In this document: in pieces, positions 2,510 through 60,505 of the stretch
Numbering within the stretch: position 1 is the stretch's first letter
Layout: each line of letters starts with the position of its first letter
Origin: Gammaproteobacteria bacterium
Lineage (GTDB): Bacteria > Pseudomonadota > Gammaproteobacteria > JAJFJF01
DNA length: 64,000 bases
Direction: 5' to 3'
Assembly: GCA_021774255.1 (NCBI GenBank)
Contig: JAJFJF010000012.1
Coordinates: 30,259-94,258 of the forward strand
Position numbers and translations under genes: made by a program
The notes under the pieces: generated by a model
Database searches by the model: none
What the model was told of the DNA's origin: nothing
What the model saw: the letters and a program-made list of their open reading frames with translations, nothing else

Positions 2510-4027
2510 TTATAAATCTTGGTGGTAAGGATAAGAAATATCCTCATCGATTTGCCAAACGGTATCAAAATCCCAACCGATAAAAGTCTCTTCTTTCATC
2601 ATTTCTTTTGTGGTTTCCTTACCTATTCCACCCTCTGAAGTATCTTGTTGTGAACTTTCAATATCCCAATAGCTTTCTACCACAATGGGATTACCGCCAT
2701 GGCTATTTCTAAATCCGACTAAACCACCGGCAGCGTCATATTCTGCAAATACAAATCCAACCGCATAGCTTTGACTAATTACAGCATCAGTACACGGGAG
2801 ACCTCCTGCAAAATTGAATCCAACTAGACCACCAACATAACCAAGTCCCTCAACACTGCCCATTGCATAGCTTTGGCTAATAATAGTATCAAACCAATGC
2901 GTGATATTTTTCCCAACTAAACCACCAACGTTTTCATGCCCTTTTGTATGTCCTGTCGCATAACTTACAGTAATAATGCCGTCATAATTTTCACCAACTA
3001 AACCTCCTACATTTCTAGAGCCTGTGACGTTTCCAGTAGCATAACTATATTCAATAATTGCACTTTGAGACATATTCCCATAACTATCTATACGACCGGC
3101 TAAACCACCTATATCTCGATATCCATATGAATCATTATGAATAGACACATTGCCTATTGCATAGCTATCAGTGATTTTTCCTGAGCTTTCACCAACCAAT
3201 CCTCCCACAGTATAATCCCCTATCACATTACCTGTGGCATAACTTGCTTCAATATCACCATGGTTACTTCCAATTAAGCCACCAACATAATATACGCCCG
3301 ATATGTCAGTTGTTGAGTAACTTTCCCTGACAATGTTACGATTTATCCCAATAAGCCCCCCCATATGATTACCCAAGGTGCTCTGCACAAGAATATCGCC
3401 ATGAGCATGACTATTAACTATCTCACTGCGACTCTCTCCTACCAATCCACCAAAAACTCTGTCAGATATCACAGTTGTATTGGTGTAGCTATTTTGCACA
3501 ACTTTATGTAAATGAAAACCAGATATACCACCAACGGTACTAGCACCTTCAATTGTGCCGCCTTCAACAAAACTATTATCGATTATTGTGTATTGACTAG
3601 TACCGGTTATGCCACCAACATAATTCTTACCAAAAATCATTGGGTCGATTAAACCTATATGGCTAATACGACCACCTTCTACTGTTTGGTGATGTGTATA
3701 GCCAAATAAGCCTACGTGATCTTGCATAGGACGATTAATGTGGAGATCTCTAATTTCATAACCTTGCCCATCTAAAACGCCAGCAAAAGGATTTTCATAA
3801 TCCCTACCAATAGGCATAAATCCACCATCATCACCATAATCCCAGGAGAAGCAGCTAAAACTTGTGCCCAATTGATAATGGGCAAACAAATTATCCTCCA
3901 TCATTTGGAGTTCAGCACAATTCATAATGATATAGGGATTGTTTTCTGAGCCATCTCCCTTGCTGAAAGCCATGATTGAAGTTGAGGTAAAAAGTAAAGA
4001 AATAGCTAATGTTGATATTTTTCTCAT
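2510..4027 (-). CDS. secreted single-module GLUG-like (VGGLVG) repeat protein
   Basis: The 505-aa protein has an N-terminal signal peptide (MRKISTLAISLLFTSTSIMA). An N-cap follows (CAELQ...DYGDDGGFMPIG...FAGVLDGQGYEIRDLHINRP...VGLFGY). About 12 repeats of the type VGGLVG-x-N-x-G-x-I-x-x-SYA-x-G-x-V come next. The C-cap is conserved (SYWDIESSQQDTSEGG...ETFIGWDFDTVWQIDEDISYPY). Confidence 0.8.
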   Translation of the reverse strand: MRKISTLAISLLFTSTSIMAFSKGDGSENNPYIIMNCAELQMMEDNLFAHYQLGTSFSCFSWDYGDDGGFMPIGRDYENPFAGVLDGQGYEIRDLHINRPMQDHVGLFGYTHHQTVEGGRISHIGLIDPMIFGKNYVGGITGTSQYTIIDNSFVEGGTIEGASTVGGISGFHLHKVVQNSYTNTTVISDRVFGGLVGESRSEIVNSHAHGDILVQSTLGNHMGGLIGINRNIVRESYSTTDISGVYYVGGLIGSNHGDIEASYATGNVIGDYTVGGLVGESSGKITDSYAIGNVSIHNDSYGYRDIGGLAGRIDSYGNMSQSAIIEYSYATGNVTGSRNVGGLVGENYDGIITVSYATGHTKGHENVGGLVGKNITHWFDTIISQSYAMGSVEGLGYVGGLVGFNFAGGLPCTDAVISQSYAVGFVFAEYDAAGGLVGFRNSHGGNPIVVESYWDIESSQQDTSEGGIGKETTKEMMKEETFIGWDFDTVWQIDEDISYPYHQDL

Positions 4028-5926: not shown

Positions 5927-7465
5927 ATGAGGGAAAAACATCAAGCTCTAAAAACAGCCTTTCTTGGTATTGCTATCAGCAGCACCCCCATTTTTGCTGA
6001 CTCAAGCAACCTCGTGCAAAATATTGCTACGTGCGAAGCACTTCAAGAAATTGCATTTTCAGGCGACCTGGGCGGCAACTACGTTTTGACGCAAGACATC
6101 GATTGCACAGAAAGCGCAAAATGGGATGAAGAACAAGGCTTTTTTCCTGTCGGCAATAAAGAAACTCCTTTTACAGGCACATTAGAAGGCAATGGCCACA
6201 CTATTTTTAATTTGACAATTAATCGCCCTGCTCAATCCTATTTAGGTATATTTGGCGCAACAGATGAAGCCAGCATCACCAATCTTACGCTCAGTGAAGT
6301 CAATACCTTTGGCTTGGGCGGAAAATATGTTGCTGCTTTAATAGGAAAATCCAGTAATACCACTCTAAGCGCTATTAATTTAATGAATGTCAGTGTAGAA
6401 GGATTAGTGGATGTGGGTACGTTAACAGGCTATCACAACGGCTCAGAGAGCATTGATAAAATCAGCGTACAGAATGCCTTTGTTCGCGGCACATTTGCCG
6501 GTGGGCTCGTAGGGTATCTGCTTAACAGCACTATTCGTGACGCCTATGTAGATAATACTACACTTGCAACGGCCTATGCTGTCGGTGGACTGGTGGGTGC
6601 AGCTGAATTTTCAACCATTACTAATAGTGGCTTTAGCGGTGATATTGTGGGTGCGCATGCTGCTACCCCAACGGCTATTGGTGGCTTAGTAGGTATCACA
6701 TTAGATGTTTATATAGATAACAGTGTTGTCTTGAATGCACAGATCCACGGAGAAGAGTCCGTGGGCGGATTAGTCGGATATGGCGGGGTAAGCAAAATAC
6801 GAAATAGCCATGTGATTGACGCTGAAATAGCACACCACGTAAATGTCGGCTCAGGTAGAAACATGGGTGGCTTAATCGGTACCAGTTTACACGATCAATT
6901 AACCAACACTTCTGTGCAAAATACAAATATCACCGTCTGGGAAAAAGGCGGTGGCTTGATTGGAAGCGCAACGGGCACAGAGATCAGCCAATCTTTTGCA
7001 GATGGAAACGTGACGGGCACAGCAAGCACATACAGCAACATAGGTGGGTTAATTGGTGAAATCGATGCTACCCGCGCTGTCACGATTACCGATAGCTACT
7101 CTCACTCTTCAGTGACAGCCATGGGCGGCAGAGCCGGCGGTTTAGTGGGCCTCTTAGGCAATGGGCGCATTGAGCGCAGCTATGCCGCAGGGCGTGTAAC
7201 AGGCAATGGGAGCGGCCTGGGCGGCTTAGTAGGCGTCAGCTATTGTCACGATGAGAGTCCGGGGGAAGAAGGCGTACAAAAGGTATTTGAGAGCTATTGG
7301 GATACTCAAACAACCGGGCAAGCAGCATCAGCGGGCGGCGGGATCCCTAAATATCACGATGAAATGAAACGTCAAAGCACGTTTGTCGGCTGGGACTTCC
7401 CTGCTGTCTGGCAAATTGATGAGGGTGTGAGCTATCCCTATTTGGCTTGGGAAAGCACTTCTTAA
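5927..7465 (+). CDS. secreted single-module GLUG-like (VGGLVG) repeat protein
   Basis: The 512-aa protein has a signal peptide and an N-cap (CEALQEI...DIDCTESAKWDEEQGFFPVGNKETPFTGTLEGNGHTIFNLTINRP..YLGIFG). GGLVG repeats follow. The C-cap is SYWDTQTTGQAASAGGG...STFVGWDFPAVWQIDEGVSYPYL. Confidence 0.8.
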   Translation: MREKHQALKTAFLGIAISSTPIFADSSNLVQNIATCEALQEIAFSGDLGGNYVLTQDIDCTESAKWDEEQGFFPVGNKETPFTGTLEGNGHTIFNLTINRPAQSYLGIFGATDEASITNLTLSEVNTFGLGGKYVAALIGKSSNTTLSAINLMNVSVEGLVDVGTLTGYHNGSESIDKISVQNAFVRGTFAGGLVGYLLNSTIRDAYVDNTTLATAYAVGGLVGAAEFSTITNSGFSGDIVGAHAATPTAIGGLVGITLDVYIDNSVVLNAQIHGEESVGGLVGYGGVSKIRNSHVIDAEIAHHVNVGSGRNMGGLIGTSLHDQLTNTSVQNTNITVWEKGGGLIGSATGTEISQSFADGNVTGTASTYSNIGGLIGEIDATRAVTITDSYSHSSVTAMGGRAGGLVGLLGNGRIERSYAAGRVTGNGSGLGGLVGVSYCHDESPGEEGVQKVFESYWDTQTTGQAASAGGGIPKYHDEMKRQSTFVGWDFPAVWQIDEGVSYPYLAWESTS

Positions 7466-19337: not shown

Positions 19338-22300
19338 TTAACGCCAGGCAAATGCCCACATTCCGCGCAGATCGCGCCACCCCTTGTGCAAAGCAGGTAA
19401 GTTATAAAGCAAACGAATCAACATCGCCAGGGTACTCAGCAGAGAAAATAGCAATCGTGCGAGAACAATAGCACTGAGTCCTTGCCGAGCCAGGTACGTT
19501 GCACCAATAGTAAATTGAGGTAAATCTTCTACAGCAACACAGAGCAGCTTAAGAAGTACCAGCTGTGTATCCGCATATTCCGTTCGGGTTCGCAGGCGCA
19601 CCAGATCAGGACCCAGCACGGGCATAAACAATAGCCAATAAGGTAAATCTCCTGCCCGACGAGGCAACCAAGTGCCGTACATCAATTTCAAAGAAAGCAA
19701 CCCAATTCCCAATGAGGCCAGCAAAAAGAATACAAGTGACACCAAAACCAAATCGTTTTGGTGATCTTCATCCATTGCTATGATCAGCGAGCCATCCAGA
19801 ACTTTATCAGCGATCCACCAGAAAAATCCCCAGGTAGCCATCACTTGGTAGCGCTGCAGCAGAAGCAACCAGGCTACTGGTAGACAATAAAACATTTGCG
19901 TCAACCAGCGGTGCTTCCATGTCAAAGTAGGCACCGTTAGGCGCGACCAATCTTGCTCATCGGGTGATAGCAGTTCATTACCCTCAAGCAGGACATCAGC
20001 AAGCACGCTTGAATGTTGTCGTACTGCTGCCTTGAGTGATCCCAGCGCGCGTTTATCGACTCGATTATAGCGGATATCGAGGTGCTGTAGTGTGGGAAAC
20101 GTCCCCAGCTGTTCAAATAAGCAGCGGATCCCCAGCCCCGTGATCTTGTTATGAGAAGCTTTCAGGTGCGTCACAGGGGTTGCTTGCAAAGCACGTAAGA
20201 GCCGTTCAAACGCGACGTCATCCAAACCCAACCCGCTGACATCTACTTCGCTTGGTCCATTTCTTCCCTGCTGCACAAGCAGCTGCAACAAGATCTCGAA
20301 GCTCAAACGCCAGCGATTAGATTTTGAATCGGCGGCCTGCATGAAGTGGTAGACGAGCATCCACCCGTTTTTTTCAATGAGTAGTTGGATAAGTCTCTTT
20401 CCTTTTCGTGTGCATATAAAAGGATTATCCCCTTTCCTGACTAACGCGATGACCTCGCTGGAACGATTACGTGTACCAGCACTTAACAGAGCAATACAAC
20501 CTTCTGGGGTAACCTGGTTTAGCTGTGGTGGATCTGGAAAAAACCACCAGCTTTCAAATAGCCCCACCTGCCCCTCTGTCAAACGCACAAAACTTTGAAG
20601 TCGCTTACTGCAAACCAGCTTAGCGGTGGGTTCAGCAGAAACGTCTACTCCCAAATGAGGCTTTAAATAAGCAGCGATCTGGGGATAGCGTTGCTGGCTG
20701 ATAGCATAAGCTGCACGACACAAAGCGGCCTTTTGCTCTCCCAATCTATTTTCTTCACAAAGAAATTGAACAACATCATAATGCCCCCCTTTTGCGGCCC
20801 ACTCGATAGCGGTGTCACCTTTCACTTTGCGCGTCGCCATACTTGCATCTTGCGTATAAAGCCAGCGCACTGCCGCCAAGTTGCCTATCTCCGCCATCCA
20901 GGCCAAACGATCAGGGCTTTCTAGTAAGCGCTTCAAGCGACGGGAAGCGCGCCAACGATGCAAGACCGTTTCTAACCACAAGCCTGTCGCCATTAGTGTT
21001 ACGGTCAAAATCCAGCGTGGCATCCATTTTTCATAAAACGTGGTGTCGCCTGGGCAAGGCCCTTCAGGAACAGTGGGCGCCTTATCTGGCACCAAATCAC
21101 AATGATAAGGGTAGCTCTTGCCGTGCGCTATGCACCAGATGGTCGGGTCCCAATCTTGGAAAGTTTCCCAGTGATACATTGCTGGCGTTTTTTTACCGTA
21201 GGCACGCAGGCCAAAACTGCCACTTTCTCCTGCTGGAAAGTCTTGCCCCGTTGCATTGATATCCCAGTAAGACGCTTCAAAAATGCCATCTGCTCTTGAT
21301 CCCACCAAGCCACCTTTGGCCTGGTTGGACTGCACACAACCGGCGGTGTAACTAAAACGAACATGATCATTGGCTCCCACACTATGACCGACTAGACCAC
21401 CGGCTTCATCTTTGCCTGTGACAGGCCCCAAAGAATAACAGTATTCAACCATACCGTCGTTTTCGCCAATCACCCCGCCTACTTGGCGGCCCGTGCCTTC
21501 GATAGCGCCTGTACCATAACAATGTGTGAGCACGCCTCCGGCAGTTTGCCGTCCAACCAAGCCAACATTGTCACGACCGGTGACACGACTGGTGGCATAG
21601 CTGCGATCAATGATGCCTGCATTCAGGCCAGCGAGCGCACCCACATCATCACCTTCACTGAGTAGCCGCCCAAAAGCAACGCTCTCAATAACATGTCCCT
21701 CAGCACGGTTATCCCCCACTAAACTTGCAGCACGATCGCCGCGAGCTGTTACCGTGTTATTAACCCAACAACGCAGGAAGATCCCCAGATTTTGGCCAGC
21801 AAGCCCACCCACAGCAACATTGCCTTCAACTTCGCTGTAGACTGCTAATGCTTCAGCCCGCCCCAGGTTGTTGCCAATGGCGCCGCCAACAATTCGAATA
21901 CCCGTCACGGGGCCGTAGGCGGTACTGTGGTAAACGTCTCCACTGCTTTCGCCTATCAATCCACCCGTGGCACTGTCATAGCCAATGACGGCGGCCCATG
22001 ATTGACTGGTGTTGAGCAACCCTTCTAGATGCCCTACCAAGCCACCGACACGATAACTTCCCGTCACGGTTCCAGCAGCAGTACTGTTTGTGATAACACC
22101 AATAATTTTGCTCTGCCCTACTAAACCACCAATGCTCTCACCCGGATCAGCGCCTATCACATCACTTTGCACATGAAGAGCTGTCAGTGTGCCGCCATTG
22201 TGACCAACAGCGCCCCCTACAAAAGCATGCCCTCTCACAATTCCCGAACTGATGCTGTCTGTGACCGTGCTATAGTAATCGTTAGATCCCACCAACCCAC

Positions 22301-23483
22301 CAATAGCCTGTCCTGGGTAGACGCCGGTCACGTTGATTTGAGCATCTACGGTCATCAGTGCACCAAAATTGATACCTACAGCACCCCCCACTAGATAAGC
22401 GCCTCTGACTGCCCCCAAAACGGTGCTCTCCATCACCAGACCTGTGCTTTGTCCTACCAGGCCACCGATACAGCGTCCTGAATGGGCACCGGTCACATCA
22501 ACTTCGGCATAAATACCTGCAAGCGTACCATGATTAAGGCCGAGCACTCCGCCAACCAAAGTCGTGCCTGTTGTCGTAGTAAAAACGGTACTGTTGGTGA
22601 CAGTGCCCGGATTGGATCCTAACAAACCACCAACGAGCTCAACGCCGATCACCTTAGTGTGGGCATAGAGGGCGGTGACTGCGCCATAATTGTTGCCCAC
22701 TGCCCCGCCTACATAAAGGGAACCGGTTACCACGGCAAAAACTTCACCGTTTGTCACTGTGCCCAGCGCACTGTTATACCCCAGCAAACCACCAATAGAG
22801 TGACTCAGGCCGATCCCGGTCAGATTACTTTGGGCACGGATACTTATTAGAGCAGCAGAATTGTAGCCAACTACTCCGCCGACGAGACTGCTCCCTGCTA
22901 CTGTGCCAAAGGCCACCCCCTCAGTCACGGTGCCTTGGTTTCTCCCGACTAAACCACCAATACCCTGTCCTAGGCCTCTACTCTTGACACTCCCTTCTGA
23001 GTAAAGAGCTGTGAGCGTACCTAAGTTATATCCCACTGCCCCGCCGGTATAGACAGTACCTGTTACTACCCCAAGGACTGTGCTGTTGGCGACAGTGCCT
23101 GCATTTCGTCCAACTAAAGCACCGACTTCTTCTTTGCCAACTATTCGAACATGCTTCAAACTCACGCCCTTTATTAGCCCTGTGGTAGCCAGATAGCCAA
23201 ATAATCCTACATAATTTTCATCAGTTCGGTTGCTAGTTAGGTAGCTGATTTCGTACCCGCTCCCATCATATTCACCCGAAAAAGGGGTGGCTAGCGTGCC
23301 AATGGGCCTAAACCCGGCTCCTCCATTCCACGCTTCGCTGCCTGCGCAGCTAATATGATGGGTTTGAATGAAAGAACCCGATAGATTGCCAGCCAAGGCC
23401 TGCAACGACTCACAGCTATCCACAGCGGCTTGCGCGCAAGCCGCCTCTATCAGTAAAAACAGTAGAAAAATTTCCCCAAACAT
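19338..23483 (-). CDS. giant GLUG-like repeat protein with TM segment, ankyrin repeats, RNI-type LRR and conserved C-terminal membrane domain
   Basis: The start was set at MFGEIFLLFLLIEAACAQA, a signal peptide; the track ORF starts 23 codons earlier. The N-cap plus GGLVG/GGAVG repeats and C-cap YWDINATGQ...YPY are followed by a hydrophobic segment. An ANK-like region and an LRR region (LKASHNKITGLGIRCL..LQHLDIRYNRV) come next. The C-terminal domain is YWLLFMPVLGPDLVRL... The N-terminal ~110 aa are nearly identical to those of the divergent neighbour. Confidence 0.8.
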   Translation of the reverse strand: MFGEIFLLFLLIEAACAQAAVDSCESLQALAGNLSGSFIQTHHISCAGSEAWNGGAGFRPIGTLATPFSGEYDGSGYEISYLTSNRTDENYVGLFGYLATTGLIKGVSLKHVRIVGKEEVGALVGRNAGTVANSTVLGVVTGTVYTGGAVGYNLGTLTALYSEGSVKSRGLGQGIGGLVGRNQGTVTEGVAFGTVAGSSLVGGVVGYNSAALISIRAQSNLTGIGLSHSIGGLLGYNSALGTVTNGEVFAVVTGSLYVGGAVGNNYGAVTALYAHTKVIGVELVGGLLGSNPGTVTNSTVFTTTTGTTLVGGVLGLNHGTLAGIYAEVDVTGAHSGRCIGGLVGQSTGLVMESTVLGAVRGAYLVGGAVGINFGALMTVDAQINVTGVYPGQAIGGLVGSNDYYSTVTDSISSGIVRGHAFVGGAVGHNGGTLTALHVQSDVIGADPGESIGGLVGQSKIIGVITNSTAAGTVTGSYRVGGLVGHLEGLLNTSQSWAAVIGYDSATGGLIGESSGDVYHSTAYGPVTGIRIVGGAIGNNLGRAEALAVYSEVEGNVAVGGLAGQNLGIFLRCWVNNTVTARGDRAASLVGDNRAEGHVIESVAFGRLLSEGDDVGALAGLNAGIIDRSYATSRVTGRDNVGLVGRQTAGGVLTHCYGTGAIEGTGRQVGGVIGENDGMVEYCYSLGPVTGKDEAGGLVGHSVGANDHVRFSYTAGCVQSNQAKGGLVGSRADGIFEASYWDINATGQDFPAGESGSFGLRAYGKKTPAMYHWETFQDWDPTIWCIAHGKSYPYHCDLVPDKAPTVPEGPCPGDTTFYEKWMPRWILTVTLMATGLWLETVLHRWRASRRLKRLLESPDRLAWMAEIGNLAAVRWLYTQDASMATRKVKGDTAIEWAAKGGHYDVVQFLCEENRLGEQKAALCRAAYAISQQRYPQIAAYLKPHLGVDVSAEPTAKLVCSKRLQSFVRLTEGQVGLFESWWFFPDPPQLNQVTPEGCIALLSAGTRNRSSEVIALVRKGDNPFICTRKGKRLIQLLIEKNGWMLVYHFMQAADSKSNRWRLSFEILLQLLVQQGRNGPSEVDVSGLGLDDVAFERLLRALQATPVTHLKASHNKITGLGIRCLFEQLGTFPTLQHLDIRYNRVDKRALGSLKAAVRQHSSVLADVLLEGNELLSPDEQDWSRLTVPTLTWKHRWLTQMFYCLPVAWLLLLQRYQVMATWGFFWWIADKVLDGSLIIAMDEDHQNDLVLVSLVFFLLASLGIGLLSLKLMYGTWLPRRAGDLPYWLLFMPVLGPDLVRLRTRTEYADTQLVLLKLLCVAVEDLPQFTIGATYLARQGLSAIVLARLLFSLLSTLAMLIRLLYNLPALHKGWRDLRGMWAFAWR

Positions 23484-23564
23484 CCTGCCTTGGCAAAATA
23501 CTCTCTCCTGATCAATGGCGTAACAAGCAAAGGTAAGATACAAACACGCCATTCAAACGCGAAC

Positions 23565-23784: not shown

Positions 23785-26700
23785 ATGGCTAACAACCGTG
23801 TGCTTCTTTTTTTATTGACACTATCTGCAGCAGTTTTAGCCCAAGAAGAAATAGAGAGCTGCGAGGCGTTACAGGCAGTTGCCGACAACCTTTCTGGCTC
23901 CTTTATTCAAACCCGTCACATTAGCTGCGTAGGCAGCGAAGACTGGAATGGAGGAGCCGGGTTTAGGCCCATTGGCACACTAGCCACCCCTTTTTCGGGT
24001 GAATATGATGGGAGCGGGTACGAAATCAGCTACCTCACTAGTAACCGAACTGATGAAAATTATGTAGGATTATTTGGCTATCTGGCTACCACAGGGCTAA
24101 TAAAGGGCGTAAGTTTGAAATATGTCCGAGTCATTGGAAAAGAGCGAGTAGGCGGTTTAGTTGGCCAAAATAGAGGGGCTGTTTTCGATAGCACAGTGCT
24201 TGGAAATATAACCGGCATATTTATGGTGGCTGGGGTGGCAGGTACTAATCTCGGTACGCTGACCAACATCCGTGCCCAAATTATTATAACGGCCCTCCCC
24301 CCTGGCGAACGTGTTGGCGGCTTGGTGGGGGAAAATACCAACACAGAAGGCGCAACAGGTATCGTGACAAATAGCAGTGCTTTCGGGACGGTCACTGGAA
24401 ACTACTTGGTTGGCGGTGCAGCAGGAAATAATGATGGCACGCTCATAGCGATCCATACCCAAACTCACGTGATTGCAGTTGATCCTGGGGAGTACATTGC
24501 CGGCTTAGCAGGACTCAATATGGGGCTCATCGCTGACAGCAGTGCTTCCGGAACAGTCGTCGGTACCCAGCTCGTCGGCGGAGTGGCAGGTGCCAACTTT
24601 GGCACACTGATTGCCACCTCCCAAGCCAACATCACTGGCAGCAGCAAAGCTACCGGAGGCCTGGTAGGCCAAAATGAAGGCCTCGTAATAGATAGCGCAG
24701 CTTTTGGGGCAGTAACTGGCACAACGCATGTAGGCGGAATTGCAGGCATCAACGGCAACACCATAACGGATACCTTCAGCCATTGCACTGTCATAGGAAT
24801 CGAACCGGGGTGGTACGTTGGCGGTTTAGCCGGCTATAACAGTGGCAGCACCATGAACAGTGCTGTCTATGGCGAAGTAATAGGCACCGCTTATGTAGGT
24901 GGCGCGCTAGGCGTGAATTTCGGCACCTTAACTGCCGTCGATGTTGAAGCCAGCGTGAGTGGCCTCGACCCCGCTGAATTCATCGGTGGTGTAGTAGGCG
25001 AAAATGGCGGCACAGGTATTATCTCAAACGCTACCTTTTTTGGGGAGGTAGTAGGCAGTGCCCAAATTGGCGGCGCCTTGGGCAACAACCTGGGCATAGC
25101 GACTCTCCTCTATTCTCAAGGTGACGTGACCGGCATGACTTCAAGCAAATCTGTCGGCGGATTGTGTGGACGCAATGAACGATTGATCTCCCATAGCACA
25201 GCGAATACCGCAGTCTTCAGTGCGGGCCCCAATGCAGGTGGTTTTGTGGGTGAGAACACTTATACTGGCGAATTACTCAACGCCACTGCTTTGGGAAACG
25301 TTATCAGCACAGCAGACAGTGCCGGCGGCCTAGCGGGGGCTAACCATGGTAAAATTTTTGATAGCCTAGCCCTGGGAAATGTCTCTGCCTATTATCTGGC
25401 GGGAGGACTCATTGGCGTCAACACGATCACCGCGCTTGTTAATCGAAGTGCTTGCTTGGGCGTTGTCTCGGGAACAGAAAGCCAAATCGGAGGATTGATC
25501 GGTCTTCACGAAGGTGTCCTTGAGAACAGCTATGCTTTAGGGTGTGCTTCAGGCACCCATACCGTAGGGGCTTTGCTTGGAAAAAATGAAGGCACACTCA
25601 AACATTGCTACGCTGTTGGTTGTGTGACGGCAGAAAACAACACCGGTGGGCTGGTGGGTGGAACACTGTCATCCCATGATGTTTTCTCTTGTTTCTGGAA
25701 TAAGCACAGCACCGGGCAACGCCACCCTGCTGGCGGGCGCTACGACGCCTCCCTACAAACGCTTGGTCTTTCAAACGAAGAGATCCGTCAGGCTGAGACT
25801 TTTATCGAGTGGGATCCTGGTACTTGGCACATGATTGAAGGCCAGCTTCCTTATCTTCCCTCACTCACACTTGCCCCACAACCTCAGCTACCAACCGAGC
25901 ATTGCCCGATGGCGCCACTGCCCTTTTCTGCCTGGATGAGTGAACTTGCATCCCTGGGTACAGTTTGGATCAGCATGATGCTGCTTTGGCTGATGTGGCG
26001 ACGCTGGCGTACCTTACAACAAAGCTTCCTTGTATGGCAGGATAGATGGCTGTGGCGGGTAGCGACAAAAGGCGATCAACACCTGCTTCACTATCTTCTG
26101 ACTGATAAACCCAATATACCTACCGAAGATGAGCAAGAGATCTCTGCCATTGTTTTCGCCGCACGTATGGGTTTTCTTGAGATGGTGGACACCCTCATTA
26201 AAAAATGGAAGATTCAAGCAACAGAGGAACGTTACACGGAAGCATTGTCCACAGCCCAATATTATGGATACCAAGAGATCATCACACTTTTAAAGCCAAC
26301 AGATGCCGGCTCACTTGTCCCCCCCTCTCCTGTCGAGATGAGAGAAGGAGGCGGCAACCTACGCCGTCGAGCGCAACCACGTAGCGGCGCTGGGGAAGCA
26401 CTATTGGGCACCCATCAACAACACACGCAAGAAGAAGAGCTGTACGAAGCCGCTTCCAACGGACACTACTTTACAACATGGTGGCTACTGCTTAACGAAG
26501 CCATATGTAATCGTGTCTTAGAACAATATCAGACAACACCACTTTGGGCAGCTATCAAAAAGGGGCACTTAAATACAGCACTTTTGCTCGTGGCATATGG
26601 TGCCTTTTTACCAGTACAAAATTCACGTAAGCAAACCGTGGCGCACCTCTTGATAAGCCAGCACCGACGGATCTGGGCCAAGCGTCTGCGCGATGCCAGT

Positions 26701-27678
26701 CCAGAAGCGGCTTTGTGGCCGTTTTGTTTCCGGTTATACCGACAAGCCTTGAGAGATAATAGTGATGCTTTAACGTCAGCCGATCTCAGTGGCTACGGTT
26801 TGGGCGACGAAGCGCTTGCCGATTTAGCGGATGCCATGAAGGGGAATTCTCACCTAACGCACTTGTTAGCCAGCAACAACCATTTCACCGACCGAGGCCT
26901 CCAATACCTGGCACAAGTATTGACTGAGCATGCCGCCATCCCGCTCACTGAAGTGGACGTACGTCATACTTTGGTGACGCAGCGGGGCATTGACGCTTTG
27001 CGGCGGGCCAAGTGTGATCTGACGATCCAATGGGAGGGTACCCGAGCAGATACTACCGTCACTGAAAACCGTTGGGCGCACTGGAGTGAAGCATGGCAGC
27101 AGCGATGCAGTTTGAAGCTCGCCCTCTCCTGGCAACGTTATACATTAGGCCCCCTGTTGGGATGGTGGCTTATCATGGCCCATCGCTTTATCAGCGGCTT
27201 TCTCATTCAAGATTTGGATGAACAGCACCAAGAAGCGCTCATGACAGCAGGAAGCATCTTGTTTATCATTAGCTACGCTAATAGCCTGCTTGCCTTACGC
27301 TACGTCTACGGTGCATGGTGCCCTCGCCAACTACTCGATATCCTAGGCTTCTTGGCGTTGTTGCCTTTACTGTCGCCTGAGCTACTTATCCTTATCTGGC
27401 AAATTAACTACCCGGATGTTGCGCTGACGCTTTTTAGCAGTGCCCAACTCCTGCTTGAAGTCGCACAGGCAACTTTGTTTCTTTATGCCGGCACGTTAGA
27501 AGGGTTTTCAGCATTTATCCTTCTAAAGTTAAGCCTCACGCTTTTTTCGATACTCTGGCACCTGGCCGCTTGGCTTCACCAAGGCACGACTCTCATTCCT
27601 CAATTTCAAGGGCTATGGGAACGCCCCGGAGATTTTTTCACACCAGAGGATCCCGGAGAGGAGATGCGCCAAGTCTAA
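23785..27678 (+). CDS. giant GLUG-like repeat protein with TM segment, ankyrin repeats, RNI-type LRR and conserved C-terminal membrane domain
   Basis: The 1297-aa protein has a signal peptide and GLUG repeats. A TM segment follows (VWISMMLLWLMW). The ANK region reads LWAAIKKGHLNTALLLVAYGA. The LRR region reads LSGYGLGDEALADLADAMKGNSHLTHLLASNNHFTDRGLQYLAQVL. The C-terminal region is multi-helix and hydrophobic. Confidence 0.8.
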   Translation: MANNRVLLFLLTLSAAVLAQEEIESCEALQAVADNLSGSFIQTRHISCVGSEDWNGGAGFRPIGTLATPFSGEYDGSGYEISYLTSNRTDENYVGLFGYLATTGLIKGVSLKYVRVIGKERVGGLVGQNRGAVFDSTVLGNITGIFMVAGVAGTNLGTLTNIRAQIIITALPPGERVGGLVGENTNTEGATGIVTNSSAFGTVTGNYLVGGAAGNNDGTLIAIHTQTHVIAVDPGEYIAGLAGLNMGLIADSSASGTVVGTQLVGGVAGANFGTLIATSQANITGSSKATGGLVGQNEGLVIDSAAFGAVTGTTHVGGIAGINGNTITDTFSHCTVIGIEPGWYVGGLAGYNSGSTMNSAVYGEVIGTAYVGGALGVNFGTLTAVDVEASVSGLDPAEFIGGVVGENGGTGIISNATFFGEVVGSAQIGGALGNNLGIATLLYSQGDVTGMTSSKSVGGLCGRNERLISHSTANTAVFSAGPNAGGFVGENTYTGELLNATALGNVISTADSAGGLAGANHGKIFDSLALGNVSAYYLAGGLIGVNTITALVNRSACLGVVSGTESQIGGLIGLHEGVLENSYALGCASGTHTVGALLGKNEGTLKHCYAVGCVTAENNTGGLVGGTLSSHDVFSCFWNKHSTGQRHPAGGRYDASLQTLGLSNEEIRQAETFIEWDPGTWHMIEGQLPYLPSLTLAPQPQLPTEHCPMAPLPFSAWMSELASLGTVWISMMLLWLMWRRWRTLQQSFLVWQDRWLWRVATKGDQHLLHYLLTDKPNIPTEDEQEISAIVFAARMGFLEMVDTLIKKWKIQATEERYTEALSTAQYYGYQEIITLLKPTDAGSLVPPSPVEMREGGGNLRRRAQPRSGAGEALLGTHQQHTQEEELYEAASNGHYFTTWWLLLNEAICNRVLEQYQTTPLWAAIKKGHLNTALLLVAYGAFLPVQNSRKQTVAHLLISQHRRIWAKRLRDASPEAALWPFCFRLYRQALRDNSDALTSADLSGYGLGDEALADLADAMKGNSHLTHLLASNNHFTDRGLQYLAQVLTEHAAIPLTEVDVRHTLVTQRGIDALRRAKCDLTIQWEGTRADTTVTENRWAHWSEAWQQRCSLKLALSWQRYTLGPLLGWWLIMAHRFISGFLIQDLDEQHQEALMTAGSILFIISYANSLLALRYVYGAWCPRQLLDILGFLALLPLLSPELLILIWQINYPDVALTLFSSAQLLLEVAQATLFLYAGTLEGFSAFILLKLSLTLFSILWHLAAWLHQGTTLIPQFQGLWERPGDFFTPEDPGEEMRQV

Positions 27679-43335: not shown

Positions 43336-43499
43336 TACGTGGGTAAACTTGTCTAATCCACACAACTCCTTAGGAAGTGCCCTTGAATCGATTCATAGTT
43401 ATTTAAATAACAAAGTATTTGCCGTTTTATTTTTGCGAGAGGATCCTCCGCTTTGTATCGTTACTAGTCACATAGATTGGCTTGTTTAAATGTGCGGCA

Positions 43500-46400
43500 C
43501 TAAAGCGTCGACATTTCAATATCACCCGGCAACGTGCCTGCTCTGGGTTTATCAGCTAACGCTTGCTTCCCAAAGCATCTTCCTTTTAACTGCCATAATT
43601 GCTGGCGCATCGTTGGCAAATCATAAAACAATAACTTGCTCAGAAAAAAGAGGGATGCGGTAAAAGCAACAACGACCTTAATCAACACAAAAGTATTGCT
43701 CCCCTTGCGAGTCAAAAACAATACCCCAATTGTAAATTGCGGCACATCTTCCAGGGAGAAGTTAGCGATTTTCATTTTGGCAAAACGTTGGTCGATGTAT
43801 TCAACACCCCACTCCAAGCGAACCCATTCTGGGCTTAAAATAGGCAAGGTAAGTAACCAGTAAGGACATTCGGATAACGACTTCGGATACCAACGACCAC
43901 GCACAGTCCGCATACCCCACAAACCAATTCCATACGATGCAAATAAAAACAGGGTCGAATAGAGGGCTAGCTGAGCTTCATCATTAGCCAGCAATTCACG
44001 GATCAAAAAGGCGTCTGAGATCCTATCGGCCATCTCCAGCATAAAACCAAATACAGTGACAAGTTGATAGCGCTGCAGGCGAAGTTGAATATGCTCAAGC
44101 TGTGCACCAAACATGTTCAGCAACGAACAAGAGGGCGCGTTCTGAAGCAGTTCTTCATTTGCGTTGCCCAACTGACGTTGCGACAAATACTGGTTCAGTT
44201 GGTTCCAGTAAACATCATTTTGAGGCAAGAGCTCATTATTAGCGAGTTCAACTATCCGCAAGACCGTTTGCCTTTGCAAGGCCCGCATCAGCAAGCGCAC
44301 GCTAGCAACATCAAGCAAATTGTCACTCAAATCCAACTTGGTTAATTGGGCAGGCAAACCAGGCCCTTCGAGCCAACCACGCAAACCCACCACGCTCAGA
44401 CTGTTGCGCGCCAAATTGATTTCAGTTACCACGGTATTGTTAGAAAGTGCTTGTGCTAGCTTTTGAAGCTGTACATCCGTGAGATTTTGTCCGCTCAAAT
44501 CAAGGTGTGTGAACTGCGGTGCATTCTCTTCAATGGCCTGCAAGAACAAGTCAAAACTCGCAGGCCAAACAGCGTAATAAGGGCTCGCTCGTACAAGCAA
44601 CTGTGCATCTACACGCTTGCCTTGCATGATAGCCATATCAATGGCCGTGTAGCCTTTGGGTGAACGCACAAACAGATCTGCACCGTCGCCAACAAATTTT
44701 TGGGCCTCGTAAAAATCACCAAGACAAACAGCCAGCATCGGTGGCGTAAGGCCAGAACAGTTGACTAGATTTATCTCAGTGTGGTCTTTTGCTGCCACAA
44801 GATCATGCTCTGATAACAAACTCAGTGATAAACCCGCTTTCAGTTCTTCATCAATTTGCTGCTGATACTGTTGCTCAATGGCCTCACTGTTTGGAATATA
44901 TTGATTGACGCCCTTGTGACCATTGTTGATTGCTGCTTTTAACGCTACTTCAAATGCGAACAAGGAGTCTTGCACAGACATCTTGGAAACAAGGTACGCC
45001 ACGACCTCCAGGTGCCCACCTTGCGCAGCCCACCATAAAGGCGTGTGGCCTTCAGCATCTTCTGCCATGACAGAAGCGCCCTTCTCTTCAATCTGCCACT
45101 TGACGAGCGAGAGGCTGCCGATTTGCGCGGCAGCATGCAATGGATGAAAGACGGCTTGCTTCTGACGACGACGCCACATGAGCCAGGCAAATCCCAGCGC
45201 GGCTGCACCCGCCGTCACACCAATATAGCTATTGAGCTGCGTCTGGTACAAAGCGGGTGGGATAGGACAAGCATCAACAGGTTTGATCGGTATCATGCTT
45301 GTCTGAAATTGCAAGTAAGGATAGCTATCGCCTTTGGCAATTTGCCATATCTGCTCAAAATCCCAGCCTTGATAAGTGTTGGGCTGGTACATTGCTTGGG
45401 TCTGTCTGCGATAGCGGCGGCGATAGCTGTAATACTGATCGTTCACACCGGGCAAAGACTGCCCCGTCGTCGAGACATCCCAGTAAGACTGGCTCACCAG
45501 CGCAGTATCCAAAAATGAGCCTGTCAGAGCGCCTACACTATTACCTTGCACACAACCTGAAACATAACAATTGCTAAAGCGTCCGCTGTTTTGGCCAATC
45601 AATCCACCGACATTTTGCTCACCTGTTGTGCTCGTGACGGCATAGCTATCAATAAGTTCTCCGCTGTGCACACCAATCAGGCCGCCCGTTTGGCGTACGC
45701 CGATCACGCGTGACTGGGCAAAACACTGAGTGATCTCTCCTAGGTTATGCCCAACCAGTCCACCGGCCGTTTGTGCTGCTGCCACTTCGCCCAGCGCATA
45801 ACTGCTCAAGATATCACCACTATTTCTACCCACTAATCCGCCGGCGGTGTCTTGTGCTGTCACAGAACTGTTACTATGGCTAAATATTAACGTGCCTGAA
45901 TGGTCCGCAATTAAGCCACCCGCTTCTTCAAGAGCCGTGACGTCTGCTTTGCTGTGACAAGACGATACCTCACCTTGGTTCCGAGCAATGAGGCCCGCCA
46001 CTGTGAAATTGCCATTCACCACCGCACTTGCTGAACAATCTGTTACTGTGCCTGTGTTTTCGGCGATGAGGCCTGCAACCGTATCGATACCGTCAACCTG
46101 ACCTGTAAAGTGACTATTGCTCACCTCACCCTGGTTAACACCGAGCAGGCCTGCGCCGATAGCCACCGTCAGACTGACGCTACCGGTCACCTGGCAATGA
46201 GAGACACTTCCTTGATGATAGCCAACCAATCCACCAATGATTTCTTGACCGTGAATATTCACTTCCTCAAGAATAACGTTACGGATCTCCGCCGTGGCTG
46301 CGGTGTAACCAAAAAGACCCAAGCGCGTCTTGTCGGGCTGGTTCATGTAGAGAGAACGAATGCGATAGCCCTGCCCATCAAAAACGCCTGAAAAAGGTTC

Positions 46401-49400
46401 AAAGGTATCGGCATCTTGGTACCAGCCCAAGGGTAAAAAACCTTTCCCATCATTCCAATTTTCTGTCTCCATACAATCAATATCTTGTGAGAGGTAAGCA
46501 GTCGCATTGGGGCAAACGCTTTGTAAGCTGAGACAGTCAGTCACATTAACGACACTTTCAGTCGCTTCAATGGGTGCCAGACGACGCAGCTGGGGATAAC
46601 GTTGGCATCCCAGCCACCACGTATGGATAAAGTCCCAGGTTGCATAGTTAGCTTGCCATTGCATCAGCTGAGTAGAGCGCCCCTGACCACCTGCACTTGC
46701 TGTTTGACCAGAAATATCGACATCCCAGTAGCTATGCGTTGTGGTTGCGCCAGTACTGCTAAACCCAACCAAGCCGCCCAAGTTTTCACTACCTTGAACA
46801 GGGCTTGCTGCGTAACAGGCAATGATTTGGTTTTGGTTCCAGCCCACTAAACCACCCAGCAGGTTCACACCTTGCACATTGACTGAGCTTGCACTATTTC
46901 TAAGCACACCTTCTTGCCAGCCAATCAGGCCGCCTGCAATCGCGTCTGTGGCCGTTACCTGTCCTGTCACATGTGTGTAAGCCACCCTGCCGTTATTCCA
47001 GCCCACTAGGGCACCTGTATAACGCCCACCGTTAACATTCACATTTATGAGAGAAACATTACCGATGACTGTCGTCTGTGCGGTATAGCCAAACAAGCCA
47101 ATGTAGTCTTCATCAGGACGATTAATGGTCAAACCGCTGATTGCGTAACCTTGCCCATCAAAATAACCAGCAAATGGACCGGTTAATGAAGCGTCTTGGA
47201 ACCAACCCAAGGGAAGAAAACCCTTGCCGTTATTCCAATTAGCCGTATCACTACAGTCAATGTCTTGCGTGAGATAAACGCTTACGTCAGCATCAAGGCA
47301 AACTTCCCCCAGCGCCTCACAAGTAGACACCCAGAAAACGTTAGTATTGTTGTCAGGCGCATTGCTCCATACTTGAAGCTGTGGGTAGTTTTGACACGGG
47401 AAACGCCAAACAGTGGCGCTGTCCCATGCCTCATAGTTATTTTGCGCACGCATCACCTGCGATATTCTACCGACACCGCCTGCACTAGTGGTTTGTGCTG
47501 ACGTTTGAATATCCCAGTAAGCATCTTGTACAAAACCGCTGCCCTGGCCAACAAGGCCACCTGCATGCGTGTTTGCCGCAACGTTACCTATCGCGTAGCT
47601 TGCAGAGACGATGCCATCATTCAGCCCCACTAAGCCACCCGCGATATGGTCTGCGCTCACAGGTCCTGTCGCATAAGTATTTTCTAAAATAGTGAGATGG
47701 TGACCCATCAGGCCACCTACTGTCGAATTACCTGATACCGCGCCCGTGGCAAAACTTTGCGTCACGGTCACCCTATTTTTGCCAACAAGCCCACCTACTG
47801 AGTAATTACCTGTTACGTCGCCCGCCGCAAAGCAGCGCTCAAGCGCTATCTCAAATTCATCAAGTTCATAGTCATGAGCACCTATTAGACCACCTACAAA
47901 ATTTTGGCCACTCACGGCACCTAAGGCATAGCAGTCTGTCACGCTGCCGATGTTAAAACCGAGCAACCCGCCAAAATAACGACCACCTGCGCTGATAGCA
48001 CTGACAGCTCCAGTAGCATGAAGATGACGGATACTGACTTTTTCATTAGCACCTATTAGGCCACCTACATACTGTTTACCAAAAACATTACCCTGTGCTG
48101 TGGTATTAATGAGTATGCCGTTATTCCAACCGATCAAACCACCCACATAGCTATCACCTCTTACATCGCCACTAGCCGTCACATTCGTCAAGGAGCCTTG
48201 TCTATTTTCGCCCAAGAAACCACCTACGTAATGGCCTGAGCTTTCCACGTTACCGCTGGCATAGACGTTCCTAAAAACGACATTAGTGCCCATGTTGGAA
48301 CCCAGTAGGCCGCCCACGTAGTTAGCCGAACCCGAGAAGTTACCCGTAGTGTAAATATTGTCGAAAACAACACCATCACCACTGTTGAAGCCTAGCAGAC
48401 CACCAATGTAGTTAGCCGAACCCGAGAGGTTACCCGTAGTATAAATATTGTCGAAAACAACGCTATCAGCACTGTTGAAACCCAGTAGGCCACCAACGTA
48501 ATTAGTCGAACCTGACACGTCAGCGCTAGCATAGATATTACTAAAAATAAAACCATCAATGTTATTAGAGCCGAGCAAACCGCCAACAGCACTTGAGCCC
48601 ATCACACTACCTGTAACACTAACGTTCTCAAAAGTTCCAGTGTTAAAGCCTAACAGACCACCAACATGATCGCCTAAGGCCTCCACGCTGGCAGAAACAT
48701 AGGCATTGCTGAGAAAGCCCGTGTTATAGCCCAGCAAACCAGCAACGTAGTTGCCTGAACTTACCACGCTGCCGCTGGAATAGGCGTTAGTCAGAAAACC
48801 GGAATTGTACCCTAACAGACCACCAACGTAGTCAGCTGAGCCTATCACGCAAGCTGTAGCAGTGACGTTATTGAGAGTGCCAGAGTTGCTGCCTACTAGG
48901 CCACCGATGCGTTCTGAGCCTGCAATATTGCCACTCACATAAACGTTGCTAAGGGTGCCACCGTAATTGTAGCCCGCCAGGCCGCCAACGTATCTGCCTG
49001 AAGCCGTCACATTGCCACTAACAGTGACGTTGTTGATGGGGGCCAGGTTATTATAACCGACCAGACCACCAATGTAGTCGCCTGAGCCCGTTACGTTACT
49101 CCTAACATAGACATTACTGATAGTGCCGGAGCTCTTGCCGACCAGACTACCCACATATTCATTACCTGATACACTTCCGTCTAGTAAAGTGACAGCATCT
49201 ACTTGCGCCAAAGCGCCGATACTGACAAATAATCCCAGATAAGATATTGTTGTGCGATCAATAACTAGCCCTGAAATGCTATAGCCCTGCCCCAAAAAAG
49301 CGCCAGTGATAGCAAGCCCTGTGCCAGGTAAAAACCCCGCACCACCGTTCCAGTTCGCCGTATCGACACAATCAATATCCTGGCCAAGGATAATAGTGCC

Positions 49401-60505: not shown

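What the first reader, a model, noticed from the sequence alone, without database searches (positions are those of the whole stretch)
43500..60505. Divergent pair of 2.7-2.8k-aa modular GLUG/ankyrin/LRR membrane proteins inserted between mutS and nlpD
The two largest ORFs in the window (2737 and 2840 aa) are divergently transcribed paralogs. Each is a Sec-signal peptide followed by 6-7 complete modules. Every module is an N-cap (C.ELQ...D.DC....WN.G.GF.P.G...PF.G.FDG.GY.I..L.I.RP...YVGLFGY), then 10-25 VGGLVG-type (GLUG-like) repeats of ~25-29 aa, then a C-cap (YWD...SGQ..SAGG.....M....TF.GWDF...W.I.EG.SYP.L). The small 505- and 512-aa proteins at 2510 and 5927 are exactly one such module each, so the giants are concatenated secreted-adhesin units. 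After the modules come one TM helix, ankyrin repeats, an RNI-type LRR and a conserved multi-helix C-terminal domain. ANK and LRR are eukaryote-like domains typical of effectors of intracellular or symbiotic bacteria. I do not recognise their fusion to a multi-module GLUG ectodomain with a membrane anchor as a described system. The pair sits precisely at the mutS-nlpD(rpoS) junction, a classic insertion hotspot.
Basis: partly seen in the sequence, partly recalled or inferred. Interest (0 to 1): 0.85.

Follow-up and report, generated by a model that had tools for sequence, protein, structure and literature searches.

The report
Bacterial GLUG giants ending in half-XKR domain
Two giant, back-to-back bacterial genes encode membrane proteins with a long repeat-built outer part, ankyrin and leucine-rich repeats inside the cell, and a tail whose predicted fold best matches half of the animal XKR lipid scramblases, a fold I found no report of in bacteria.

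Summary

A second divergent pair (19338-27678) has the same architecture. Only 18 representatives among 1.84 billion proteins carry this domain. The host is a gammaproteobacterium with no close relative (MutS at most 66% identical). The pair sits where relatives carry rpoS.

Function is inferred: an envelope receptor or adhesin coupled to an XKR-like module, possibly a heterodimer of the paired genes. I found no description of this architecture.

The parts
43500..51713 (-). Gene A, 2737 aa: signal peptide, 5 GLUG modules, TM, Ank, LRR, XKR-like domain
   Evidence: Intact ORF. Pfam Glug E=5.6e-92 and Ank_2 E=2e-13. Residues 30-2737 are identical to the database protein P0017.
51663..51713 (-). 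A signal peptide (MVLKLFFFVVLVACASA|Q)
   Evidence: Hydrophobic N-terminus. The same 'CASAQT' end is conserved in relatives P0022, P0024 and P0032. No signal-peptide predictor was run.
45297..51662 (-). A ectodomain: five capped GLUG modules (aa 18-303, 301-756, 754-1461, 1459-1724, 1719-2139)
   Evidence: N-cap (W-N-x-G-x-G-F-x-P) and C-cap (YWD...) positions. DNA repeat period of 78-84 nt.
45174..45230 (-). A transmembrane helix (aa 2162-2180), followed by WRRRQKQ
   Evidence: Sequence read directly. Its hydropathy is below the 1.6 cut-off used. It aligns with the TM of B, which passes that cut-off.
44907..45140 (-). A ankyrin repeats (aa 2192-2269). A further Ank-like helix pair precedes the LRR (aa ~2329-2395)
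   Evidence: Pfam Ank_2 E=3.7e-15 on the tail. Helices 1-67 of the model.
44232..44528 (-). A RNI-type LRR (aa 2396-2494), four beta-alpha units with a period of about 28 aa
43575..44123 (-). A XKR-N-domain-like membrane domain (aa 2531-2713): TM1, TM2, re-entrant IH1, TM3 with the EDVPQF kink motif, TM4
51714..51985 (.). Shared divergent intergenic region (about 270 bp)
   Evidence: Sequence. No sigma-70 consensus match was found inside it.
51983..60505 (+). Gene B, 2840 aa (2839 aa from ATG 51986): signal peptide, 6 GLUG modules, TM, Ank, LRR, degenerate XKR-like domain
   Evidence: Identical to P0018 from residue 2.
52049..58786 (+). B ectodomain: six capped GLUG modules (aa 23-457, 455-712, 710-1273, 1267-1533, 1529-1797, 1793-2268)
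   Evidence: N-caps of A2/A3 and B2/B3 are 72-84% identical.
58850..58927 (+). B transmembrane helix (aa 2290-2315)
   Evidence: Hydropathy 2.06; coordinates.
58964..59137 (+). B ankyrin repeats
   Evidence: Pfam Ank_2 E=1.1e-8 and Ank_4 E=4.4e-7.
59540..59866 (+). B LRR (aa 2520-2628)
   Evidence: Aligned with the A LRR. Pfam LRR_6 E=0.0047, which is sub-threshold.
59909..60415 (+). B XKR-like domain (aa 2643-2811). The TM3 motif is degenerate (LESMLPYVI)
   Evidence: 38% identical to the A domain. Subfamily clustering with P0020.
19338..23552 (-). Gene C, 1404 aa: paralog with one long GLUG module, TM, Ank, LRR, XKR-like domain (EDLPQF)
   Evidence: Pfam Glug E=1.3e-21 and Ank_2 E=3.9e-7. 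Tail alignment. Identical to P0025.
23785..27678 (+). Gene D, 1297 aa: paralog divergent from C, with a degenerate XKR-like motif
   Evidence: Pfam Glug E=8.1e-25 and Ank_2 E=4.1e-13. Tail alignment. Identical to P0033. Inverted repeat of 374 nt at 84% with C.
2510..4027 (-). S1, 505 aa: signal peptide plus a single GLUG module, no anchor
   Evidence: Pfam Glug E=1.5e-26; sequence.
5927..7465 (+). S2, 512 aa: signal peptide plus a single GLUG module, no anchor
   Evidence: Pfam Glug E=2.5e-21; sequence.

Best explanation
A and B belong to a very rare family of modular envelope membrane proteins. So do C and D, 20 kb upstream.

Shown:
- Each protein has a Sec-type signal peptide.
- It then has one to six capped GLUG-repeat modules with conserved cap cysteines.
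- A single TM helix follows, with positive residues right after it.
- Ankyrin repeats and a four-unit RNI-type LRR come next.
- The protein ends in a membrane domain of about 170 aa. Its predicted fold and key motifs match one N-terminal repeat (TM1-TM2-IH1-TM3-TM4) of eukaryotic XK-related (XKR) lipid scramblases.

Inferred topology: the GLUG array lies outside the cytoplasmic membrane. Ank-LRR is cytoplasmic. The XKR-like domain re-enters the same membrane with both ends in the cytoplasm, as the XKR N-domain does.

Inferred mechanism: XKR proteins are built of two related repeats, and these proteins have only one. Each divergent pair combines one canonical domain (A and C keep E-D-x-P-Q-F) with one degenerate domain (B and D). 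I therefore propose that the two products of a pair heterodimerise into an XKR-like two-repeat unit.

In this model the GLUG ectodomain binds a surface or ligand. The Ank-LRR scaffold couples or regulates. The XKR-like unit alters the membrane, either by lipid scrambling or by docking a lipid-handling partner.

The free single-module proteins S1 and S2 would be soluble relatives of the ectodomain.
For: Architecture:
- Pfam supports GLUG and Ank.
- Caps, modules and TM come from direct sequence analysis.
- All four paralogs align along the whole tail.

LRR:
- The AF2 model built on an 18-sequence alignment has pLDDT 86.9 and pTM 0.81.

XKR-like domain:
- Pfam PF09815 matches a family member (P0021) at E=7e-4 over profile positions 2-167 of 337, which is the N-terminal half.
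- hhalign of the 18-sequence family profile against XKR8/9/4 scores 25.3 over 151 collinear columns, template positions 14-187.
- Controls score lower. Reversed profiles give 14-16. 100 block shuffles give mean 15.9, maximum 23.0. 100 column shuffles reach at most 18.7.
- The alignment pairs the family's FxLExxDRxxD with the XKR TM1 acidic cluster. It pairs xEDxPQFxI with the XKR TM3 LExAPQLxL. Straub et al. describe these as the conserved acidic residues and the PQL kink (PMC8298096).

Pairing:
- The A/B and C/D pairs are both divergent.
- Each paralog groups with a counterpart from other contigs: A with P0019, B with P0020, C with P0026 and P0030, D with P0028.
- P0019 and P0020 share one contig. 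P0028 and P0030 share another.
- The TM1 and TM3 motifs are degenerate in the B and D types.
Against: - No function was tested.
- The Pfam XK-related match is below the gathering score (19.1 against 24.8 bits) and was seen in only 2 of 18 members.
- The hhalign probability is low (4.7%, P=0.0085).
- A profile search of PDB sequences found no XKR at E up to 10.
- Foldseek did not list XKR among its top 50 matches.
- The heterodimer is untested. Some family members seem to occur without a known partner, or carry extra TM helices after the domain (P0024, P0034).
- The genome encodes Gram-negative-type envelope genes (nlpD-like, murJ). In such a cell a 2100-aa ectodomain anchored in the inner membrane has no obvious route across the outer membrane. 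No secretion partner lies in the window.
- The GLUG module fold was not modelled.
Confidence: 0.55

Rival explanations
1. These are plain surface adhesins or envelope-spanning structural proteins. The GLUG arrays do the work by binding a host or substrate surface. The Ank-LRR part only docks them to a cytoplasmic partner. The C-terminal helical domain is just an extra membrane anchor, and its likeness to XKR has no functional meaning.
For: - The ectodomain makes up more than 75% of each protein. Its modules vary in number and show repeat expansion and exchange between paralogs. N-caps are 72-85% identical while tails are 33% identical. Inverted DNA repeats reach 622 nt at 81%.
- Anchor-less single modules (S1, S2) exist.
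- Members P0027, P0032 and P0024 lack Ank-LRR altogether.
- Helical bundles can resemble each other by chance.
Against: - The C-terminal domain is the part shared by all 18 family members, including one without GLUG (P0034).
- Polar and acidic intramembrane motifs (E/D in TM1, ED-PQF in TM3) are kept in the A-type and C-type domains. That is not expected of a simple anchor.
- The first TM helix already anchors the protein.
Confidence: 0.25
2. These are eukaryote-like effectors of a host-associated bacterium. The Ank, RNI-LRR and XKR-like parts were acquired from a eukaryote. The proteins act in or on host membranes, for example to expose phosphatidylserine or remodel a vacuole membrane.
For: - Ank, RNI-type LRR and XKR are typically eukaryotic domains. 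The nearest structural matches are all eukaryotic.
- The window also encodes a Fic protein and a Mip-like FKBP.
- The genome has no close relative (MutS at most 66% identical).
- rpoS is missing from its usual place.
Against: - A cleavable Sec signal peptide, a very large cysteine-containing ectodomain and five membrane segments are hard to reconcile with injection through type III, IV or VI systems.
- No secretion system and no host evidence is available in the window.
- The exhaustive sequence search found no eukaryotic XKR or other donor-like protein, so a recent transfer is not supported.
- The organism's lifestyle is unknown.
Confidence: 0.15
3. The giant ORFs are assembly or annotation artefacts of a repetitive region, or decaying pseudogenes.
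For: The region is highly repetitive. The source is a draft contig of 99.5 kb.
Against: - Both ORFs are uninterrupted over 8.2 and 8.5 kb.
- Repeat copies are diverged, 60-90% identical, not identical.
- The module order is collinear between A and B.
- The same architecture recurs in C and D and on at least seven other contigs.
- The tail domains give a confident co-evolution-based model.
Confidence: 0.03

Closest known systems
XK-related proteins (XKR8, XKR9, XKR4, CED-8, XK; Pfam PF09815), eukaryotic lipid scramblases or scramblase partners
   Different: - It has one repeat of about 170 aa, not two repeats with 8 TM and 2 half-helices.
- It is bacterial.
- It is fused downstream of GLUG, TM, Ank and LRR.
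- I did not look for a caspase-cleaved inhibitory tail.
- It falls below the Pfam gathering score.
- Scrambling activity is untested.
XKR8-basigin/neuroplastin complex
   Same: From my own knowledge, supported only by the title of PDB entry 8xej: a single-pass type I membrane protein with an extracellular binding domain is associated with an XKR membrane module. Here a comparable combination sits in one polypeptide.
   Different: The ectodomain is a GLUG repeat array, not Ig domains. The link is covalent and runs through a cytoplasmic Ank-LRR segment. This is an analogy only, with no homology implied.
GLUG-repeat surface proteins, such as streptococcal Zmp/IgA1 metalloproteases (Peptidase_M26_N region plus GLUG)
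   Same: Strong GLUG repeats are present. The N-cap weakly matches the end of Peptidase_M26_N (E about 1e-5, below threshold) and the ZmpB/ZmpD models.
   Different: No metalloprotease domain was found in the Pfam or NCBIfam scans. The modules are concatenated with their own caps. The anchor is a TM helix plus a cytoplasmic tail.
Tropomodulin/leiomodin C-terminal LRR cap and NLR or RNase-inhibitor LRRs (RNI-like)
   Different: There are only four units. Sequence matches are sub-threshold. The segment lies between Ank repeats and a membrane domain. Partners are unknown.
Ank- or LRR-containing Dot/Icm effectors of Legionella and Coxiella (AnkG/LegA7, LegL1, LegL7)
   Same: They share eukaryote-like Ank and LRR repeats. 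There are weak hits to the AnkG model and to Legionella LRR structures 4q62 and 4xa9.
   Different: Those effectors are soluble or simple proteins without a Sec signal peptide or a giant ectodomain. The scores here are far below the family cut-offs.

Membership tests
GLUG repeat proteins (PF07581) | Repeats match the Pfam GLUG model above the gathering score | tested here: met
   A 296 bits, B 261 bits, C 76, D 86, S1 91 and S2 75 bits, against a cut-off of 20.5.
GLUG repeat proteins (PF07581) | The repeats form a beta-helix-like solenoid | not tested
No solved relative was found by sequence.
Ankyrin repeat proteins | Match to the Ank models above the gathering score | tested here: met
   Ank_2 gives 51 bits for A and 36 bits for B, against a cut-off of 27.3. 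On the isolated A tail it gives 56.7 bits.
RNI-type leucine-rich repeats | Sequence match to LRR models above threshold | tested here: not met
   The best matches are LRR_NXF1-5 E=0.0013 (18.7 against 30.5 bits) and LRR_6 E=0.0047 (17.3 against 23.4 bits).
RNI-type leucine-rich repeats | Beta-strand/helix units with a period of about 28 aa forming a curved solenoid like RNase inhibitor, NLR or tropomodulin | tested here: met
XK-related proteins (PF09815) | Match to the Pfam model above the gathering score | tested here: not met
   The best match is 19.1 bits (E=7e-4) against a cut-off of 24.8. Only 2 of 18 members match at E below 1. A itself has no hit.
XK-related proteins (PF09815) | Fold of the XKR repeat (two TM pairs with a re-entrant helix between them) | tested here: met
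XK-related proteins (PF09815) | Conserved acidic residues in TM1 and TM3 and the PQL kink motif in TM3 | tested here: met
   The A-type and C-type domains have FxLExxDRxxD and xEDxPQFxI, aligned to the XKR DLGTDxW and LExAPQLxL. The motif description is in PMC8298096. The motifs are degenerate in the B and D types.
XK-related proteins (PF09815) | Two structurally related repeats in one chain (8 TM plus 2 half-helices) | tested here: not met
   Only one repeat of about 170 aa is present in A-D. A test of the extra TM region of P0034 against XKR was uninformative.
XK-related proteins (PF09815) | Phospholipid scrambling, or partnership with a bulk lipid-transfer protein | not testable with these tools
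   This needs proteoliposome or cell assays.
Type IV/III secreted Ank/LRR effectors | Membership in a curated effector family, no Sec signal peptide, translocation signal | tested here: not met
   The AnkG/LegA7 model gives 17.5 bits against a cut-off of 500. A Sec-type signal peptide and multiple TM segments are present. Translocation itself is not testable here.
M26/Zmp IgA1-type metalloproteases | Zinc metalloprotease catalytic domain | tested here: not met
   There are only weak matches to the N-terminal, non-catalytic region (Peptidase_M26_N E about 1e-5; ZmpB/ZmpD about 20 bits against a cut-off of 3000). No protease domain was reported.

The most novel reading that the evidence does not exclude
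These proteins are single-repeat relatives of the eukaryotic XKR scramblase fold that work as heterodimers encoded by divergent gene pairs. A giant extracellular GLUG receptor arm and a cytoplasmic Ank-LRR switch gate them. That would be a prokaryotic form of the XKR architecture before, or independent of, the internal duplication. It would also be a new kind of bacterial outside-in membrane-remodelling device.
Probability: 0.25. Interest if true: 0.88.

Novelty: new variant of a known kind. Interest (0 to 1): 0.72.

Why it matters
- Straub et al. describe the XKR fold as novel and built of two related repeats (PMC8298096). From my own knowledge the family is regarded as eukaryotic. How the fold arose and how it moves lipids are unsettled.
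- A bacterial protein with a single XKR-like repeat that keeps the buried acidic and PQ-kink motifs would give a minimal system for studying that fold. Such a protein can be expressed in bacteria.
- It would also give a concrete test of whether the two-repeat protein arose from a dimer.
- Separately, the fusion of a multi-module GLUG ectodomain to a cytoplasmic Ank-LRR segment and a lipid-scramblase-like domain is an undescribed type of bacterial envelope protein.
- It occurs in a gammaproteobacterial lineage that has no close relative in the databases searched.

Tried and rejected
- The homolog search with the whole A tail was swamped by fungal and metazoan ankyrin proteins and was useless for the family.
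- The single-sequence AlphaFold run of the tail failed (pLDDT 43). It succeeded only with the 18-sequence alignment.
- Exact look-ups of A, MutS, P0017, P0019 and P0035 found no source contig.
- The word-index search with the family profile returned only P0029.
- Pattern scans of GTDB genomes and JGI metagenomes with the C-terminal domain found nothing.
- The MutS scans gave no relative above 66% identity, so the organism stays unplaced beyond Gammaproteobacteria.
- PDB sequence searches found nothing for the C-terminal domain profile or for a GLUG module.
- hhalign of the longer P0034 C-terminus against XKR was uninformative.
- The afdb50 fold library was unavailable. The viral fold library returned only giant-virus LRR proteins.
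- NCBIfam gave only far sub-threshold hits.
- The promoter and terminator scan showed nothing above shuffle expectation.
- Literature searches on GLUG, bacterial XKR and eukaryote-like effectors found no description of this family.
- I considered and rejected these labels for lack of the defining domains: lipoprotein (the Cys in the signal peptide is not conserved, by my reading), autotransporter or RTX adhesin, Zmp protease, polymorphic toxin.
Full report
**1. The observation**

The window has two uninterrupted, divergently transcribed ORFs. Gene A is 43500..51713(-), 2737 aa. Gene B is 51983..60505(+), 2840 aa. The GTG at 51983 is followed at once by ATG 51986, which is the start used in the database copy.

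Pfam recovers GLUG very strongly (E=5.6e-92 and 8e-81) and ankyrin repeats above threshold. Cap motifs place 5 modules in A and 6 in B. This differs from the 6-7 that were reported. I counted 3-22 GGLVG-type cores per module with a regular expression. The DNA repeat period is 78-84 nt.

A and B are collinear. Module A1 matches B1 (65% in the N-cap). A2 and A3 match B2 and B3 (72-84%). B has one extra module.

After the modules comes one TM helix followed by a run of Arg/Lys. Then come Ank repeats, an LRR-like stretch and a conserved hydrophobic C-terminal domain. The two small proteins at 2510 and 5927 are indeed single modules with signal peptides.

LRR models match only below threshold. That part of the observation needed structural support.

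**2. A second pair and the family**

The ORFs at 19338..23552(-) (C, 1404 aa) and 23785..27678(+) (D, 1297 aa) form a second divergent pair. They have the same plan but only one long GLUG module each. The four tails align throughout.

I ran an exhaustive HMMER search of 1.84 billion representative proteins with the C-terminal domain profile. It found only 18 proteins. Four of them are A-D themselves. The others come from a handful of NCBI and Logan contigs.

The domain falls into subtypes, and each paralog has a counterpart from other contigs. A groups with P0019 (69% identity), B with P0020 (51%), C with P0026 and P0030 (44-46%), and D with P0028 (46%). P0019 and P0020 lie on one contig. P0028 and P0030 lie on another. 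The four-gene set therefore appears to predate this organism.

Architectural variants exist. Some members have GLUG, TM and the C-terminal domain without Ank-LRR (P0027, P0032, P0024). One member has many Ank repeats, the LRR and the C-terminal domain, but no GLUG (P0034). The C-terminal domain is thus the constant part of the family.

**3. The tail structure**

A single-sequence AlphaFold run failed. With the 18-sequence alignment, the model of A residues 2329-2737 is confident (pLDDT 86.9, pTM 0.81).

**4. The C-terminal domain is XKR-like**

Several lines of evidence agree:

- A Pfam scan of the 18 domains gave weak hits to XK-related (PF09815). The best is P0021, E=7e-4, 19.1 bits against a cut-off of 24.8. 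It covers profile positions 2-167 of 337, which is the N-terminal half.
- I rebuilt XKR8, XKR9 and XKR4 sequences from PDB alignments and ran hhalign against the family profile. The score was 25.3, P=0.0085, over 151 collinear columns on XKR8 positions 14-187.
- Controls scored lower. Reversed profiles gave 14-16. 100 block shuffles gave mean 15.9, sd 2.0, maximum 23.0. 100 column shuffles reached at most 18.7. None reached the real score.
- The alignment pairs the family motif FxLExxDRxxD with the acidic TM1 of XKR. It pairs xEDxPQFxI with LExAPQLxL of TM3. Straub et al. single out exactly these features: buried conserved acidic residues on TM1 and TM3, and a TM3 kink at a conserved PQL motif. 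[quoted passage not shown]

The bacterial domain corresponds to one such repeat. My reading of the model helices, using the hhalign register, is as follows:

| Model residues | Assigned element |
|---|---|
| 223-248 | TM1 |
| 252-277 | TM2 |
| 285-307 | IH1 |
| 314-342 | TM3 |
| 346-385 | TM4 |

The charge distribution after the first TM helix puts Ank-LRR in the cytoplasm. That agrees with the cytoplasmic start of XKR TM1, which I take from my own knowledge of the XKR8 and XKR9 structures.

There are caveats. The Pfam threshold is not met. A PDB sequence-profile search found nothing. Foldseek did not list XKR among its top 50. The hhalign probability is low. I therefore file the domain as XKR-like in fold and motifs, not as a member of PF09815.

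**5. Genomic setting**

MutS has no relative above 66% identity, either among 5.8 billion clustered proteins or in GTDB representatives. The host is a gammaproteobacterium that I could not place further.

In at least 20 of the 80 fetched gammaproteobacterial loci the order is alaS-recA-cinA-mutS, a gap of 1.3-4.5 kb, then nlpD-surE-eno. In Zooshikella and Neptuniibacter the gap holds rpoS, plus fdxA in Zooshikella. Here the same frame is kept, but the gap is 17.3 kb and contains only A and B. rpoS and fdxA are absent.

MutS is about 50-70 aa shorter than in relatives and lacks PF27441. An AAA_14/DUF4143 ATPase gene is wedged between cinA and mutS. No mobility genes flank the pair.

A and B share inverted DNA repeats of up to 622 nt at 81%. 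C and D share 374 nt at 84%. The N-terminal modules are far more alike than the tails. This suggests sequence exchange between partners, or a more recent origin of those modules.

**6. Mechanism**

The domain order, the folds of the LRR and C-terminal domains, the rarity of the family and the pairing of genes are shown. The rest is inferred.

Topology comes from the signal peptide, the cap cysteines and the positive-inside rule. I propose that the GLUG array lies outside the cytoplasmic membrane as a binding arm. The Ank-LRR segment would be a cytoplasmic scaffold or regulator. The XKR-like domain would be the effector part in the membrane.

XKR needs two repeats and each protein here has one. 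Each divergent pair joins a canonical domain (A and C, with ED-PQF) and a degenerate domain (B with LESMLPY, D with LLE-VAQAT). From this I infer that the products of a pair form a heterodimer that mimics the N-domain/C-domain arrangement of XKR. A conserved juxtamembrane Cys on the outer side could help such pairing, but that is speculation.

The activity could be lipid scrambling or docking of a lipid-transfer partner. Nothing here tests this.

The main difficulty is spatial. The genome encodes Gram-negative-type envelope genes. In such a cell a 2100-aa ectodomain anchored in the inner membrane has no evident path through the outer membrane. The window holds no secretion partner.

**7. Rivals**

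- **Simple adhesin with an inert anchor.** This remains plausible (0.25).
- **Host-directed, eukaryote-derived effector.** This fits the domain types. It does not fit the signal peptide and the multi-pass topology. The exhaustive search also found no eukaryotic donor-like sequence (0.15).
- **Artefact or pseudogene.** This is very unlikely, given intact ORFs, diverged repeats and recurrence on other contigs (0.03).

**8. Novelty and verdict**

All individual domain types are known. The architecture is not, and I found no report of a bacterial XKR-like domain in the literature searched.

I rate it a new variant of known kinds, with interest 0.72. If the half-XKR heterodimer idea proves right, the finding would bear directly on the origin and mechanism of the XKR scramblase fold.

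Noticed in passing
window 19338-27678: A second divergent pair (C, 1404 aa; D, 1297 aa) of the same GLUG-TM-Ank-LRR-XKR-like family. Each has one long module. A 374-nt inverted repeat at 84% spans their 5' ends.
   Followed up: yes
window 43336-60616, compared with L001 12400-14541 and L015 12373-13688: rpoS (and fdxA) normally lie between mutS and nlpD in related gammaproteobacteria. They are absent here. No RpoS-type sigma factor was seen among the window ORFs that I scanned.
   Followed up: partly
window 40933-43335: MutS is only 800 aa and lacks the C-terminal PF27441 region that relatives of 840-880 aa have. The truncation lies next to the 3' end of gene A.
   Followed up: partly
window 39465-40670 and 1062-2255: Two AAA_14/DUF4143 ATPase genes. 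The one at 39465 is inserted between cinA and mutS, which are adjacent in relatives. It overlaps the cinA ORF by 62 nt.
   Followed up: partly
window 4447-7465: A LuxR/GerE-type regulator (5031-5795) and an ORF with no family match (4447-5034) lie directly upstream of the single-module GLUG protein S2. S1 lies on the other strand at 2510-4027.
   Followed up: no
window 9167-10270: A Fic/DUF4172 protein lies next to murJ. A Mip-like FKBP (FKBP_N+FKBP_C) is at 13556-14386.
   Followed up: no
C-termini of A (43500-43530), B (60480-60505) and relatives P0019-P0026: A conserved extreme C-terminal motif, [DE]-x-E-M-x-x-hydrophobic-COOH (IEMSTL, KEMTEMI, QEMRELHL, TEMKVV, EEMRQV). Also a conserved Cys(-Pro) about 15-20 aa before the first TM helix.
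   Followed up: no
window 51627-51713 and 23483-23552: Gene starts look miscalled in the database copies. The copy of A (P0017) starts 29 aa in and loses the signal peptide. The C ORF probably starts at Met24 (MFGEIFLLFLL), not at the first ATG.
   Followed up: partly
P0034, P0024, P0027, P0032 (proteins from other contigs): Family variants. P0034 has no GLUG but many Ank repeats, the LRR, the domain, and extra TM helices. P0024 has extra TM helices after the domain. P0027 and P0032 lack Ank-LRR.
   Followed up: partly
L081 1-941: The 231-aa domain-only protein P0029 is preceded on the same strand by a partial ORF that ends 9 nt upstream. It may be the 3' part of a split longer gene similar to P0031.
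   Followed up: no
window 37896-38702 and 30199-30888: ORFs of 268 and 229 aa with no Pfam match.
   Followed up: no
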